Of a stretch of DNA of 64,000 nucleotides, positions 42,001-48,000 are shown in pieces. Positions within the stretch are counted from its first letter, which is position 1; each line of letters starts with the position of its first letter. A program made the position numbers. The stretch comes from Escherichia coli (GTDB lineage: Bacteria > Pseudomonadota > Gammaproteobacteria > Enterobacterales > Enterobacteriaceae): assembly GCF_024223415.1 (NCBI RefSeq), contig NZ_CP100500.1. The stretch is one strand, 5' to 3'.

Positions 42001-45000
42001 TTTGAGGCCACGAAAGTTCACACTATCAAAAATATCGCCATCGGTATAACTATCACCTACCGTTAACCGTGAGCGTAAGGGAATAATGTCACGTTCAGCC
42101 GACGTATTGATATGCTGCCATTTATTGCTGTCAGATGAATTGCTACTCCCACTGTTATAACTCCACGTTGAGTTATCGCGTAGTCGCCAACTACCAATGT
42201 TGATGCCACTCTGTAAATTCAAATATGCATAGTTTGATTTTCCTGCATTATGGTTACTACGATTATTAATAGAATTACCATTAAAACTATAGTTTAGAAG
42301 CCCTGCATTTATTCCTTCTTCCCACAGTTCAGGAGAAACATAGCCGCGAGCCATTCTGCCAACATAAATTTGCGGAACGGAGAGTGACAGATGTTGCTGA
42401 CCAACATCAAACTCAGTTGATGCGTCGACCAAACGATCCTGAAGTGGTGTGCATGCGCTGTTGTCCGGCACATGTTTTTCTGCTGAATGTTCCTTATTGT
42501 CTAATAACGCAGATTTTTTTATGCCAAGACTGACAAGAAGATCTGTACTCAGGCATGGGATGAGATCTGCATTATTATCATCTGCAATAAAAGTAATATC
42601 CCGACTAGTCATAAATTCGTCGTTCAAATAAATGTCGACCCGATATGTACCAGGTGGTGCCTCGCGTCCCTTAGTAAAGGCGGATAAATCGACAGATTCA
42701 GCAAGATCATTGCTTAAAAACCGTGGATTAAAATAATACTCTGCGTCAACGGGAAATACCGCAGTTGCTAAGCCAAGGGCAATGGTAAGCCGTACAAAGC
42801 GAGGCAGTAGTAACACCTGATGCAAACGATATGCCTTAAATGCGGCACGAAAGGCTGTCATTATTAATTCCGATTGAGTTTATTATTAATTAGGTCACTG
42901 GCTTACTGCATGGTTGCCTTAATACGCGGAGTTAATGCGCCGTAATCATTGATCGTCTGAAAACTGATATCCCCGGTGGCAGCATGCGGGATATCCACCG
43001 ATACTTCACCTTTTGGCGGCACCATGGTGTTTGGGAGATTGCTATTTCCTGCTTTCATATTTGTTACGGTAATGAAGTAGGGCGTTGGATTAATAAGAGT
43101 GAGTTTGCTACCGCTGCGACGAAACCGAAGCATTGCAGGCGCTTCTTCAGGTGCCATTGCCAGGTTCGTGGGGCGATAAAACATTTTTATGCGGCTAATA
43201 ATTGCCAGCTGTAATGTATTCTCATTCTTCTGGTCTTTTTCCATAGCAGGAATAGCTTTAACATTCACCCAGAACAGGCTTTCACGGTCGCCTGGTAACT
43301 GATGATTAGTGGCGTTGATTATCCGCAGCGTATTCTCTTTTTTACCTTGCATGGAAAAAAGCGGTGGGGTAATGACAAACTGGGTGTCTTTTTGGTCACC
43401 TGCATTTTCTATCCATGACTGAATGAGATAGACACTGGCAGGATCATTATTCGTGACAGGCAATAAAACCTGTTTCTGGTTTGCCGGATAAATTACCCGC
43501 GTCGCACCCAGTGCGACAGCTGCGTTGGCAACGGTGCTATGGCAAGCAAAGAGCAATAAAAGTAACACTGTCGCCATAAAGGAAATAGAGTAGGGGGTAC
43601 GCGTAGTTTGCATCTGATGCATTCTCCATGTGTTAAGAGGATAAGCGGGAAAACCGTTACATCAGACAATCGGTAAATGTTGCTAATACATTGGCGAGTC
43701 GCCGGGTTTCCAGACTTAATGCGTTTGTAATAAATGTTGGTTCTCTTTTAATAGGAAAACCTTGCTAAAAAGTAAATATTTTTAATAACAGTAAGTTTAA
43801 CTACTATTGTTTATTGATAGTTTAGATATTATGTGATTTTTCATAGCGCTCCAAATACAAACCACTCCTCATTAATAATGAGATTCACATTGGTGAATTG
43901 CTCGGGTGTGTGTAGCCATGCCACACACACCCTGTTTCAATTTCAGATGACGTATAGCCACCTTAAGATTGAATTATAGATATTGAACTTTGAAGGTCGC
44001 ATCTGCGTTTGCAGTACCAGCTACGGACTGCCCGAGTGCAATATAACGAGCCTGGAACGGCAGTATATTCGTGCCATCAATCAAGTCAGTTTTAGCGCTA
44101 AAAGTGGCACCATCAAGTATTAATACCTCACCCGTACGGTCCAAAATTTGGATACCGACATTTTGGGCAGAGCCTGCCGCTGAACTCTGCAGCGCTAACG
44201 TATCGTCATTACTGGTGACAGTAGTACCCAGGAATGCAACAGCTGCATTATTGGAAACATTGGTATCACAATCATTCAGCTTGATATTGAAGCCAACGGC
44301 GGAGCTGAGGTCACCCGCTTTAGCCAGGCGAGAAGAACGAACCTGACCCAGCTCAACCGTTTGGTTCATTGATTCGGAATCAATCGCACAAGCGGCATTT
44401 ACCACTTCACCTTTAAAATGAATAACACCGCCATTAACAGTGGTCGTTACTGATTCATCACCCTCGGCTGCGCTTACCGCAGCAGACGACATCGCCAACA
44501 CAGAAACGACAATCATACCAACATGTTTGAGTTTCATAATTCTCCAAAATTTATATTTAAGTAGCTGAATAAAGAGAGTTAACAATTAAGTCATTCTGTT
44601 ATTGCTTATAAAACAAGAATCATTCTTGATTGGTTGTTGCCCTGAGAATATAGTTTCCAGGGTTATTACATTTCACGAAGAACGATGATATCTTTAAATC
44701 ACAAGGACACCTAATCACAACAAGTTTATTGCTGCACTTGTTGAAGAGAGTATTTGCAAAAACATTTTATGTCGCTAAATAACATGACGATTTCATTATG
44801 CATGTTATTTATAAACCGTGACTAAACAGAATATTATTGCGAACAAGGGAAGTGTCAGGAAAGGTCAAGGGCTACTAATGGTTTATATGGCTATAAATCA
44901 TTAGCTATAGTTAATGTTTGCCTGATGTAACTAACACCGAATTGCTCTAAACAGATAAGTGCAGGGTTTATTAAAGCTGACCGACAGACTTTCTTAACCT

Positions 45001-48000
45001 GGTAATATCTCTCTTAGGTGACTCTCCAAACATCCGCAAATATTCCCGGCTGAAATGGGATAAGCTTTCGTAACCGACAGCATAGGCTGCTGTGGTGACA
45101 TCGTAATGTTCATTCAGCATCGTTCGCCTGACTTCATTGAGACGTAGCCATTTCTGATACCGGAGTGGACTCATTCCCGCAAGCTGCCTGAAGTGTTGAT
45201 GGAAAGAGGGCGTGCTCATTTGCACGCGGTTTACCAGCTTGAGTCTTCAACGCTGGGAAGATGCGGCAAACGGCAAATCTGCATACCAGCCAGCCTATAT
45301 CCGGCATGCACAGGCCAATTATGAAAGAGGAGAGGCTTAAGTTCTGGAACCCTGAACGAATAACGACTACCGGAAAATCACTTCGTATCACTCAGATGCG
45401 ATTTAACATAATATACATTATGCGCACCAATATAAACCAAGGGAGAATCTAGTCGTTGGCGGTCATGATTGTCCTGCTCATTAACAACGACCAAACCCCA
45501 TATCTTACTCTTACTTAATACCGTATTCTCGGCTTAACCGACCGTGCAACCTCAACACATTGGTTTCAACTGCCGTCACCACGTTCTCTGGAAAATCTGT
45601 TGGTAATGAAGTCTTCACGTTATCCAGTACTGCCGGAATCATTCTGGCAAAGTCACTCAGGATTTCATGCATCTGCACTTCCGGGAATCTCAGCACCTTT
45701 GCTGTCGCCAAAAAATGTCGCGGATAAATTTTATCGATTGCCGTTTTTTTGCCTTTGGATGCGTTAAGCCCCATTGCCAGTTTGAGATCGCTGATGTGTA
45801 TTCCCGCGCCACCCAATACCGGAAATGCTGAAATGATGTCGTAAAATGGCGTGAGTCGATAACTGCCGCCAGCCTGAATAAATACGGAGAAGTTTTTTGC
45901 ATGGCCATCCGTTGCGCCAATCAACCACTGAAAGACCTGGAATTTCATAAAATCATACCGATCTTTCAGCGCCTCGCTGGACCCCATCAAAAAAGCCATG
46001 ATTCGCGCGATGCCTGGGCCTCCATCTGATTCATATTTCACCGATGAAGGTAAACCGAATGTCTGACACATATCCTCCTGTGGCAAGCGAAGTAAAACCG
46101 TTCGCTCAGTATTCCAACGCCTGTCAAAACGTTCGACCGCTAACGCGCGCACATTTCCCGCTTTAATGATTTCTGCGTCCGGAACATTCAACCCAAGTTC
46201 TTTCGCCAGCAGCAGACAGTAATACTCATTATCAACGCTTTGGCTGAGATCGAGCGTCGCATTGGGCTGCCTGATTTCCCCAATCGGTAATTTAATGATG
46301 TGCGTCGTCGGCGTTATTCCTTTCGGAATGCACCAGTCATTGCCTATTCTGAGCAGAGCTGTCTTCTCCTGTGCGCCAGCAACCGAGATGCGAAAGTCAT
46401 TTTCTTCTCTAATCATGCCTAGCGGGATATCTGCTTTATAAGCCGTTAATACTTCTTCAAGTCTGGCTTCAGTAAGCTTTTCCCATGCCATTATCGGACG
46501 CGTTACGGTTTCGTCTTCGGGTATTAACGTCACGGCACCAACGCTGTCTCGCCCTATTTCTGACAATAAATCAAACGGTTGTCTGGATTTGGCATGATAA
46601 CGTTTAACGATCCGGTCACGTACAATCGGGCTATCGGGTAACAAGTTATCGAAGAAGTTAAATACGGCATCAGAGGTGATATTCCCCCTCTGCAATGGCA
46701 GCGAAAGTGACAACGGTCTGGCATAACGGCTGGCTAACCACTCCGGTGCATACTTAAAGGTGTGCGCGCCGTTGGCTAACTTCGTTAACTCGCCTACCCG
46801 CTGGTTGTTCATCCAAGTGACTAGTTTGGGCATTACCACTCCAGATCTTGCTTTTCTGTTGATTCTGGCGAGGCATTTTTCGTGTCGCATAGCGTCATTG
46901 AGAGTTCAAGCGACTGTAAAATCTTAAAAAATGTCGTGAGCGAGGTATTGTCAGGGTTGTTTTCGAAATTGGAAATCGTCGCCTGCTTAATGCCGATTTT
47001 TTTCGCCAGCTCGCTCTGCGTCCAGCCATTTTGCTGGCGAACCAGTTTCATTGCATTCGCTAATTGCGTTGGGCTATAGATCTTCTGAAAGCTCATCATG
47101 TCATACGTCCACAGCAAATTTATCCGCTTAAGAGGATATTATCAGTTTTATCCTTTAGTGAGGATAAAGTCAATCTGGAAACACATCTTATCCGCTGTAC
47201 GGGATAAACGCTGCGATATCCGCGATCGCGGATAAAAGGGAGGCTTTAAAAGCCTTTTGAAGTTGGCAATATTAAGCCGCATGCCATCTCGACATGCGGC
47301 TTATACGGTTTACCAGCTATATTTCACTCCCAGCATGCCCTGAGTATCGCTATAGCCTTTATCACCTAGTTGCACACCGACATTCCCCCACAGGCTAAGG
47401 TTGTTATTTACTTTCGCCTCAACCCCGGTACGTACTTCACCGAGATTACGCGCACCATCACGGCTTACGGTTTGACCATTCATCTTCACGGCGTAGACTT
47501 TGCTATTGTTGATCCAGTTCGCTTCAATGTAAGGCTGGAACTCACGCTGTTTACCATCGTCACGCTGGTGATGGCTAATCAGGTAGGTTTTCACCCCAAG
47601 TCGCGTTTGCACGTTTCCGTTGCCTTCCGTTTCAATGCGCGTTCCGTCTTTCCGGGCATGGTCAGAATCTTTCACACCCATCCAGGTGATTTGCGCCTGT
47701 GGCTGGACGTACCAGGTATTCAGCGTCCCTTCGCTGCCGCTAAATGTTCCCGCTTCAAAGGTATACCCACCCTCAACAGAGGCCGTCACACCGCGAGAAT
47801 CATAGTCGTCAGCAGAACGGTTATCGGAACTGACGCTGTTATCAAACCAGTTATACAGCGCCCAGCTGTCAACATAAGCGCCGGTCTTATTCGCATCGTT
47901 CTGATACCAGGTCGCGTACAGCCCAGCGCTGTAACCGCTGATGCGCCCATCCGATTTATAACCCACACGATTACTCTGAGTATTACTGTGCTGATTGGCG

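What the first reader, a model, noticed from the sequence alone, without database searches (positions are those of the whole stretch)
44586..45510. Decayed regulator region (yneL remnant) between the intact fimbrial operon and hipA
Only an 84 aa AraC-family HTH fragment (44971..45225) remains. The 285 bp between it and hipA is too short for an AraC N-terminal domain and contains only overlapping short ORFs in other frames. This marks a deletion or recombination scar next to the hipBA toxin-antitoxin locus, and it leaves the fimbrial operon without its likely dedicated activator.
Basis: inference. Interest (0 to 1): 0.3.

Follow-up and report, generated by a model that had tools for sequence, protein, structure and literature searches.

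The report
Ancient relic of a lost regulator gene
The short regulator fragment between the F9 fimbrial operon and hipA is the known E. coli pseudogene yneL, the leftover tail of a lost aldehyde-type detoxification gene cluster and not a lost fimbrial activator, so it is ordinary genome decay.

Summary
An 84-aa ORF at 44971..45225 (- strand) is the C-terminal part of an AraC-family DNA-binding domain (Pfam HTH_18, E 4e-21), and nothing longer is readable upstream of it.

It is a sharply cut 3' piece, codon 216 to the stop plus about 20 bp (45239..44953), of a 304-aa regulator with AraC_N and HTH_18 domains. That regulator is a paralog of E. coli YqhC.

Full-length copies in Enterobacter, Citrobacter and Klebsiella lie head-to-head with an alpha/beta-hydrolase operon, never next to fimbriae. 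The window still holds two more collinear crumbs of that cluster on the + strand: 60 bp from inside the hydrolase gene (45240-45299) and the first 45 bp of a DUF2255 gene (45320-45364). At least three deletions therefore shrank about 5.3 kb to about 450 bp.

No genome among 5426 complete E. coli genomes extends the fragment in place. About 78% carry it (22% window-type, 56% the further damaged K-12 type). About 18% (UTI89, ST131 and similar strains) have different DNA there.

Seven genomes carry a full-length homolog 480 bp away. It arrived on a 12.7-kb integrase island inserted at 45400-45410 and sits beside the relic.

The "deletion scar" reading holds. The "lost fimbrial activator" and "recent scar" readings do not. 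The feature is known and of low interest.

The parts
44971..45225 (-). 84-aa ORF (GTG start), the C-terminal part of an AraC-family DNA-binding domain. This is the yneL-type pseudogene.
   Evidence: ORF list. Pfam HTH_18 E 4.2e-21. NCBI's annotation of the identical sequence calls it a pseudogene.
44953..45239 (-). All regulator-derived DNA: codons 216-304 of a 304-aa AraC_N + HTH_18 regulator, the stop codon, and about 20 bp of its 3' flank.
   Evidence: blastn 89% identity over 270 bp to the E. coli island copy and 85% to Klebsiella. tblastn covers residues 216-303. The 3' flank compares to K. michiganensis and the island copy.
45239..45240 (.). Deletion junction. Regulator codon 216 is fused to the inside of the divergent hydrolase gene. 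About 1.6 kb is missing relative to Citrobacter youngae and Enterobacter sp. MGH 24, and about 2.7 kb relative to Enterobacter vonholyi, where an alcohol-dehydrogenase gene also lies between.
   Evidence: Collinear blastn matches on both sides of the junction in five species. No homology of 45240-45510 to the 5' 650 nt of the regulator gene.
45240..45299 (+). 60-bp internal relic of an alpha/beta-hydrolase gene. It encodes LSLQRWEDAANGKSAYQPAY, which matches residues 226-245 of the 366-aa Enterobacter protein.
   Evidence: blastn 87-93% identity to four species. tblastn 18/20 identities, E 1e-9. Nucleotide mapping to gene positions 601-661.
45320..45364 (+). Relic of the first 15 codons of a DUF2255 gene (MKEERLKFWNPERIT).
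   Evidence: 38/45 nt identical to the DUF2255 gene starts of E. vonholyi and K. pneumoniae. tblastn E 0.002. Collinear with the other pieces. Pfam DUF2255 on the intact homolog.
45400..45410 (.). Recombination core (GATTTAACATA). It is the insertion point of a 12.7-kb integrase island in seven genomes, flanked by an imperfect 11-nt direct repeat, and it is the common right-hand boundary of all alternative haplotypes.
   Evidence: blastn breakpoints and junction sequences.
45398..45466 (.). Flank that accompanies the hydrolase/regulator cluster in Enterobacter. It marks the outer edge of the relic region, 44 bp from the hipA stop.
   Evidence: blastn 84-88% identity to E. vonholyi L015 5548-5616 and Enterobacter sp. 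L017 8559-8609.
44795..44824 (-). f9 (fml) promoter: -35 TAGTCA, 18-nt spacer, -10 CATAAT. The transcription start falls at 44788, 251 nt upstream of the major-subunit ATG (44537). It lies outside the relic, in DNA shared by all haplotypes.
   Evidence: Promoter scan, sequence, and agreement with the start site mapped in CFT073 (PMC3966885).
45511..46833 (-). hipA, the neighbouring toxin gene. It is not part of the relic.
   Evidence: ORF list and NCBI annotation of the identical sequence.

Best explanation
Window 44953-45466 is the collapsed remainder of an accessory gene cluster that once lay between the F9 fimbrial operon and hipBA. The cluster consisted of a YqhC-like AraC-family regulator (AraC_N sensor domain plus HTH_18 DNA-binding domain) transcribed divergently from an operon. 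That operon encoded an alpha/beta hydrolase and, in the fuller versions, a YqhD-like iron alcohol dehydrogenase, a DUF2255 protein and a KefF-like flavodoxin-fold reductase.

Shown: at least three deletions removed all but four collinear pieces. These are the flank (45398-45466), the DUF2255 start (45320-45364), 60 bp from inside the hydrolase gene (45240-45299), and regulator codons 216-304 (45239-44953).

Inferred: the remaining 84-aa ORF has no function. It has lost the sensor and dimerisation domain and the first two helices of the first helix-turn-helix, it has no visible ribosome-binding site, and other lineages have damaged or lost it further. By analogy with yqhC-yqhD, the ancestral regulator controlled its divergent detoxification operon and not the fimbriae.
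For: - **Sharp homology edges.** 89% identity from 45239 to 44967 and nothing upstream.
- **Collinear matches.** The four window pieces match Enterobacter vonholyi L015 5548-10902 in order. The junction-flanking pieces also match Citrobacter youngae, Enterobacter sp. MGH 24, E. mori and K. michiganensis.
- **Gene content of the intact clusters.** ORFs are; Pfam and NCBIfam assignments are.
- **YqhC-like regulator.** The full-length protein has AraC_N (E 3e-45) and HTH_18. It is 29% identical to K-12 YqhC over 262 aa (E 2e-38) with the same architecture. The neighbouring dehydrogenase is 33% identical to YqhD (E 4e-64).
- **No intact copy in place.** Only 94 of 5426 complete E. coli genomes hold the gene's 5' 640 bp anywhere. 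87 are the type found on an argW/intS island and 7 are on an integrase island beside the relic.
- **Further decay elsewhere.** The K-12 type replaces about 45187-45285 (3048 genomes). BL21 deletes 44343-45005. UTI89-type strains replace 44954-45399 (978 genomes).
- **Selection.** dN/dS between E. coli fragment alleles is 0.45, against 0.03-0.24 between intact genes.
- **Independent f9 control.** The f9 promoter lies outside the relic, and H-NS and temperature control of f9 has been shown.
Against: - The 84-aa ORF is uninterrupted in the window-type allele. One paper reports microarray signal for yneL (PMC9308461), so some expression is possible.
- dN/dS of 0.45 rests on about a dozen substitutions and does not prove neutrality.
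- The ancestral full cluster was not found at this position in any Escherichia genome. 'In situ decay' is therefore inferred from collinearity with other genera whose wider neighbourhoods differ.
- Three haplotypes share breakpoints within a few bases at hydrolase positions 658-661. Independent random deletions do not explain that well.
Confidence: 0.85

Rival explanations
1. One reading: the fragment is what remains of the dedicated AraC-type activator of the adjacent F9 (fml) fimbrial operon, so the operon has lost its activator.
For: The fragment lies upstream of the operon and in the same orientation, about 430 bp from the major-subunit gene. Some fimbrial operons do have AraC-type activators (general knowledge).
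Against: - Full-length homologs carry the AraC_N domain and resemble YqhC, not the Rns/CfaD type.
- In Enterobacter, Citrobacter, Klebsiella and on the E. coli argW island they pair with hydrolase or dehydrogenase genes and never with fimbriae.
- The divergent partner gene's relic is still fused to the fragment.
- UPEC strain UTI89 lacks the fragment entirely, and F9 expression has been shown in CFT073, a UPEC strain whose locus I did not examine.
- CFT073 f9 is controlled by H-NS and temperature, and the authors found no link to the upstream putative regulators.
Confidence: 0.04
2. The fragment is a displaced gene end left by site-specific integration. A GInt-type island that carries its own copy of the regulator integrated into or beside the resident gene, so the relic block is the decayed end of an older island rather than of chromosomal DNA.
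For: - In seven genomes a 12.7-kb island ends with a full-length homolog only 480 bp from the fragment. The island has two integrases plus 788-aa and 142-aa ORFs, and imperfect 11-nt flanking repeats.
- E. vonholyi has a second 3' fragment of the regulator gene 1.85 kb downstream of its intact gene, and 90 bp resembling the island's left end next to the cluster.
- All haplotypes share the 45400 core as a boundary.
- GInts are described as ginABCD plus cargo, flanked by 10-11 nt imperfect repeats (PMC5385486).
Against: - The fragment's 5' edge is fused to an inverted internal hydrolase piece. This is exactly what an internal deletion of a divergent gene pair gives, and the edge is 160 bp from the recombination core, not at it.
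- The 34 bp next to the core do not resemble the island's left end.
- No integrase remnant lies in the window block.
- This rival changes where the cluster came from, not what the fragment is.
Confidence: 0.1
3. The 84-aa ORF is a working stand-alone small DNA-binding protein retained by selection.
For: The ORF is intact in the window type (1213 genomes). yneL signal is reported on microarrays. dN/dS against intact genes is low, 0.11-0.20, although most of that divergence dates from when the gene was whole.
Against: - It lacks helices 1-2 of the first helix-turn-helix and the whole N-terminal domain.
- It has a GTG start with no Shine-Dalgarno-like sequence.
- The commonest allele (K-12 type, 56% of genomes) is shorter and frameshifted.
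- It is deleted or fused in BL21 and absent in about 18% of genomes.
- Amino-acid changes occur at positions invariant among intact homologs.
Confidence: 0.03

Closest known systems
yneL (b1506) pseudogene of E. coli K-12, between ydeT and hipA
   Same: Same locus, same orientation and the same regulator-derived DNA. NCBI annotates both as an incomplete helix-turn-helix protein. The literature treats YneL as an AraC-type pseudogene restricted to E. coli, with variable flanks (PMC9308461).
   Different: The window allele is the less damaged form. It keeps codons 216-304 in one frame plus the 60-bp hydrolase piece. K-12 keeps only about codons 236-304 with a frameshift, carries about 100 bp of unrelated DNA in place of 45187-45285, and has also lost the front half of the fimbrial operon.
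YqhC, the AraC_N-type activator of the divergent aldehyde reductase gene yqhD in E. coli K-12
   Same: The full-length homologs of the fragment share the AraC_N + HTH_18 architecture and 29% identity with YqhC (E 2e-38). In E. vonholyi and on the E. coli argW island they sit head-to-head with a YqhD-like iron alcohol dehydrogenase (33% identity to YqhD).
   Different: It is a distant paralog and not an ortholog. Its operon also carries a hydrolase, a DUF2255 protein and a KefF-like reductase. No inducer or target has been tested. In the window only the last 89 codons survive.
Variable 5' region of the f9 operon described by Wurpel et al. 2014 (PMC3966885)
   Same: That paper places f9 between ydeP and hipBA and notes insertions, deletions and 'three hypothetical transcriptional regulators' upstream, with no evidence that they control f9.
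   Different: The paper did not trace where the regulator fragments came from. Here the ancestral cluster, the junctions and the haplotype frequencies are defined.
GInt / Tn6571-family islands (Bardaji et al. 2017, PMC5385486)
   Same: The 12.7-kb island beside the relic in seven genomes starts with two tyrosine recombinases plus a large and a small ORF without domains, carries cargo, and is flanked by imperfect 11-nt direct repeats.
   Different: Homology to GinA-D was not tested. The island is not present in the window; only its insertion site is.

Membership tests
AraC/XylS family DNA-binding domain | About 100-aa domain with two helix-turn-helix motifs (Pfam HTH_18 / HTH_AraC). | tested here: inconclusive
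   HTH_18 E 4.2e-21 covers profile positions 6-76 of 80, and the second motif is complete. The first motif is cut: the intact homolog's HTH_AraC match starts at residue 204, while homology in the window starts at residue 216. It is derived from the family but is not a complete domain.
AraC_N-type (YqhC-like) regulators | N-terminal AraC_N domain (PF06719) preceding the DNA-binding domain. | tested here: not met
   The domain is absent from the window: there is no homology of 45240-45510 to the 5' 650 nt of the gene. It is present in the full-length homologs (E 3.4e-45) and in YqhC (E 1.4e-40). The window sequence descends from such a gene but is not a member.
Gene relic / pseudogene | Truncated relative to intact homologs, with a defined junction. 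| tested here: met
   89 of 304 codons remain. The junction at 45239/45240 is fused to an inverted hydrolase fragment.
Gene relic / pseudogene | No intact allele at the locus in the species, and independent further damage in other lineages. | tested here: met
   0 of 5426 genomes extend it in place. The K-12, BL21 and UTI89-type variants show further damage or loss.
Gene relic / pseudogene | Relaxed selective constraint. | tested here: inconclusive
   dN/dS is 0.45 between E. coli alleles against 0.03-0.24 among intact genes, but few sites are involved.
Dedicated AraC-type fimbrial activators (Rns/CfaD/AggR kind) | Homologs are encoded next to, and act on, fimbrial operons. | tested here: not met
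   The neighbourhoods of intact homologs in four other species and on two E. coli islands contain hydrolase, dehydrogenase, DUF2255 and reductase genes. None is fimbrial, except where the island landed beside the relic.
Dedicated AraC-type fimbrial activators (Rns/CfaD/AggR kind) | Regulatory effect on the fimbrial promoter. | not testable with these tools
   Literature only: f9 is repressed by H-NS and expressed at 20 deg C in CFT073, with no link to the upstream regulators (PMC3966885).
GInt islands (for the neighbouring insertion seen in seven genomes) | ginABCD-type operon at one end: three integrase-like genes plus a small gene. | tested here: inconclusive
   Two ORFs hit Phage_integrase (E 7e-7 and 2e-10). 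The 788-aa and 142-aa ORFs have no Pfam or NCBIfam hit. That fits the published description of GinC and GinD, but direct homology was not tested.
GInt islands (for the neighbouring insertion seen in seven genomes) | Site-specific insertion flanked by 10-11 nt imperfect direct repeats. | tested here: met
   Window 45400-45410 is present on both sides of the island. The junction sequences share GTTAAAT.

The most novel reading that the evidence does not exclude
The hydrolase/regulator cluster may not be decayed chromosomal DNA. It may be the cargo end of a family of GInt-type integrase islands that repeatedly use the core at 45400, about 110 bp downstream of hipA. On this reading the relic, the alternative UTI89-type segment and the seven-genome island are successive occupants of one integration hot spot. 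The near-identical breakpoints in three haplotypes (hydrolase positions 658-661) would then reflect recombinase- or mobile-element-driven cutting rather than random deletion.
Probability: 0.2. Interest if true: 0.35.

Novelty: already known. Interest (0 to 1): 0.15.

Why it matters
It matters little biologically. It settles that yneL is a dead remnant of a YqhC-like regulator whose partner genes are also gone, so it should not be counted among E. coli transcription factors of unknown function or proposed as an F9 regulator.

It also gives exact junctions and haplotype frequencies for a region often used in fimbrial and hipBA comparisons: window type 22%, K-12 type 56%, UTI89 type 18% of 5426 complete genomes.

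It flags a small integration hot spot just downstream of hipA. And it explains the odd 'YneL with a FimA domain' reported for BL21 as a deletion fusion.

Tried and rejected
- **Gradual decay upstream.** I looked for decayed N-terminal-domain sequence in 45240-45510 by three-frame translation, tblastn and shuffled Smith-Waterman. None was found. So this is not a frameshifted but otherwise complete gene.
- **hipBA insertion as the cause of truncation.** A strain lacking hipBA (NRZ94505) turned out to have a secondary deletion, 45572-47182, that leaves the relic untouched. Rejected.
- **A small single-domain (MarA/SoxS-like) ancestor.** The first protein search listed only hits of 149 aa or less, which raised this idea. 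Those were fragments and miscalled ORFs; intact homologs are 304 aa.
- **An extant intermediate haplotype.** I searched with a chimeric query for hydrolase positions 601-755 in one contiguous piece. No genome covers more than 51% of it.
- **The K-12 replacement segment as a repeat element.** It is single-copy.
- **Structured RNA.** Rfam finds nothing in 44300-45800.
- **Species scan.** The scan of other species returned only seven loci because it needs exact peptide words. Escherichia outgroups could not be examined.
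Full report
**What is there.** The window is E. coli DNA. On the - strand it carries an intact F9/Fml fimbrial operon: adhesin at 38176-39090, two minor subunits, an 883-aa usher, a chaperone, and a major subunit ending at 44537. Next come the disputed stretch, hipA (45511-46833), hipB, a fragmentary autotransporter and lsrK. In the stretch, the only ORF with a recognisable product is 44971..45225 on the - strand (84 aa). Pfam assigns it to HTH_18 (E 4.2e-21) and HTH_AraC. The 285 bp up to hipA hold only short overlapping ORFs. NCBI's annotation of a 100% identical sequence (strain SCU-316) calls it an incomplete helix-turn-helix pseudogene.

**What the fragment came from.** Intact relatives exist:
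- a 304-aa protein on an island next to argW/intS in 87 E. coli genomes;
- a 93%-identical (nucleotide level) 304-aa copy in seven other E. coli genomes;
- chromosomal genes in Enterobacter vonholyi, Enterobacter sp. MGH 24, E. mori, Citrobacter youngae, Klebsiella michiganensis and K. pneumoniae.

They have an AraC_N domain (E 3.4e-45) followed by HTH_18. They are 29% identical over 262 residues to E. coli K-12 YqhC, which has the same architecture.

Window DNA matches these genes at 85-89% identity from 45239 (codon 216) to the stop and about 20 bp beyond (to about 44953). The match then stops dead. Shuffled-sequence controls show no residual similarity between 45240-45510 and the first 650 nt of the gene. 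The gene was cut, not eroded.

**The junction and the other crumbs.** Directly across the junction, 45240-45299 on the + strand encodes LSLQRWEDAANGKSAYQPAY. That is residues 226-245 of a 366-aa alpha/beta hydrolase that lies head-to-head with the regulator in Citrobacter, Enterobacter, Klebsiella and on the argW island (18/20 identical, E 1e-9; DNA 87-93%).

Further on, 45320-45364 (+ strand) is the start of a DUF2255 gene (38/45 nt). The stretch 45398-45466 matches the flank of the cluster in two Enterobacter genomes.

All four pieces are collinear with E. vonholyi L015 5548-10902. There the full arrangement reads: flank, KefF-like flavodoxin-fold reductase, DUF2255, hydrolase, YqhD-like iron alcohol dehydrogenase, then the divergent regulator. 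At least three deletions have therefore reduced about 5.3 kb to about 450 bp. The one that made the 'fragment' removed the regulator's first 215 codons, the shared promoter region and the front of the hydrolase gene.

**How it most likely worked, and does not work now.** The arrangement parallels yqhC-yqhD. By that analogy the ancestral protein activated its divergent oxidoreductase/hydrolase operon in response to a small reactive compound. This step is inference; no ligand or target was tested.

The surviving ORF lacks the sensor domain and the first two helices of the first helix-turn-helix. It starts at GTG without a ribosome-binding sequence. It carries substitutions at positions invariant in intact genes. 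dN/dS between E. coli alleles is 0.45, against 0.03-0.24 among intact genes, though this rests on few sites. I judge it dead.

**Is there an intact allele anywhere in E. coli?** Only 94 of 5426 complete genomes contain the gene's 5' 640 bp at all. Of these, 87 are the type found on the argW island, and 86 genomes share that island's context over 2 kb.

In the other seven, the intact gene lies 480 bp upstream of the fragment, and the fragment is still there. This copy is the last gene of a 12.7-kb insertion. The insertion begins with two tyrosine recombinases plus 788-aa and 142-aa ORFs without known domains, carries IS elements, and is flanked by an imperfect 11-nt direct repeat at window position 45400-45410. 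That matches the published description of GInt islands (PMC5385486), although I did not test homology to the Gin proteins.

So no lineage has the relic's own intact form.

**Population picture.**
- The window-type allele (junction intact) is in 1213 genomes, including O157:H7.
- The K-12 type, in 3048 genomes, has about 100 bp of unrelated single-copy DNA in place of about 45187-45285. It keeps only about codons 236-304, with a frameshift.
- About 978 genomes (UTI89, Nissle 1917, ST131 and similar strains) have a different segment in place of 44954-45399. It contains an NmrA-like reductase and LysR remnants, itself variously deleted.
- K-12 additionally lost the front of the fimbrial operon (deletion up to 44716).
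- BL21 deleted 44343-45005, fusing the relic to the fimbrial major-subunit gene. This explains the 'YneL with FimA domain' in PMC9308461.

**The fimbrial-activator idea.** The idea fails on four counts:
- In none of the four neighbourhoods I examined in other species is an intact homolog next to a fimbrial operon. In E. coli this happens only where the island landed beside the relic.
- The relic's true partner, the hydrolase gene, is still fused to it.
- The f9 promoter (TAGTCA, 18 nt, CATAAT at 44824-44795; start site 44788, 251 nt from the ATG) sits in the conserved block 165 bp outside the relic. It matches the promoter mapped in CFT073.
- In CFT073, f9 is repressed by H-NS and expressed at 20 deg C, and the authors note no evidence tying the upstream putative regulators to f9 (PMC3966885). 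UPEC strain UTI89 lacks the fragment completely; I did not examine the CFT073 locus itself.

**Relation to hipBA.** The relic region ends at 45466, 44 bp from the hipA stop. The recombination core at 45400 is the common edge of all haplotypes. hipBA itself is deleted (45572-47182) in some strains without touching the relic. The scar is next to hipBA but was not caused by it.

**Unexplained.** The window's hydrolase piece covers gene positions 601-661. The UTI89-type segment begins, after 10-14 filler bases, with positions 658-755. The K-12 replacement ends within a few bases of the same point. Both major haplotypes also share the fimbrial-side edge at 44953. Independent random deletions should not coincide like this. 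No genome holds the joined intermediate. A mobile element in the common ancestor, or recombinase-driven cutting linked to the nearby island site, could explain it, but this is not resolved. E. vonholyi also has a second short 3' copy of the regulator gene and 90 bp resembling the island's left end. This leaves open that the whole cluster first arrived as island cargo.

**Verdict.** The functional inference (lost fimbrial activator) and the timing (recent) are not supported. The pseudogene and the variability of this region are already in the literature. What this analysis adds is the origin of the relic, its exact junctions and the haplotype frequencies. Interest is low.

Noticed in passing
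window 45400-45410; L014 28677-41348 (E. coli CUVET21-1780): A 12.7-kb GInt-like island is inserted at this core in 7 of 5426 genomes, with an imperfect 11-nt direct repeat. It has two tyrosine recombinases, 788-aa and 142-aa ORFs, IS110 and IS3 elements, and a full-length YqhC-like regulator as its last gene. The same core is the boundary of every alternative haplotype.
   Followed up: partly
window 45295-45303 versus L004 (UTI89) 6375-6472 and L003 (K-12): Three haplotypes break within a few bases of hydrolase gene positions 658-661. The window and UTI89 pieces overlap by the 3 nt ATA. No genome has the joined form. Unexplained.
   Followed up: partly
window 45572-47182: A hipBA deletion allele with identical junctions occurs in NRZ94505 (L002) and CUVET21-1780 (L014). 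It leaves only the last 61 bp of hipA.
   Followed up: partly
window 44343-45005 (L006, BL21(DE3)): BL21 has a 663-bp deletion that fuses the regulator relic to the fimbrial major-subunit gene, giving a chimeric ORF. This accounts for the published 'YneL with FimA-like domain'. Its usher and chaperone genes are also pseudogenes.
   Followed up: partly
window ~45187-45285; L003 3462-3580 (K-12): The commonest E. coli haplotype (3048 genomes, nearly invariant) has about 100 bp of unrelated single-copy DNA here, containing a hairpin GCAGTGTCT...AGACACTGC. Its origin is unknown.
   Followed up: partly
L004 6365-8025 (UTI89); L023/L024 (MS1737); L007: UTI89-type strains carry remnants of a second small cluster in the same slot: an NmrA-like reductase, a LysR regulator, further alpha/beta hydrolases, a carboxymuconolactone decarboxylase and a cupin protein. 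This cluster is also variously deleted. The slot is a graveyard of small regulator-plus-enzyme modules.
   Followed up: partly
L021 (JARKOR010000214.1): A contig deposited as a 'Candidatus Nanosynbacter' metagenome-assembled genome is 97% identical to window 40046-45431. It is E. coli fimbrial operon plus relic, which indicates contamination of that bin.
   Followed up: no
L016 7780-8507 (Citrobacter youngae): A small two-gene cassette (104-aa and 138-aa ORFs, the second with a helix-turn-helix), which looks like a HigB/HigA-type toxin-antitoxin pair, sits just beyond the hydrolase gene's 3' end. That is the position occupied by hipBA in E. coli. The assignment is by eye only.
   Followed up: no
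window 47310-49453: The autotransporter gene next to hipB is broken into two overlapping ORFs (282 and 450 aa) and is much shorter than the 5.4-kb intact gene annotated in SCU-316. The window strain therefore differs from SCU-316 here, despite 100% identity over 43900-47400.
   Followed up: no
L015 12742-12855 (Enterobacter vonholyi): A second copy of the last ~110 bp of the regulator gene lies 1.85 kb downstream of the intact gene in the same orientation. This is reminiscent of a gene end displaced by an insertion.
   Followed up: no
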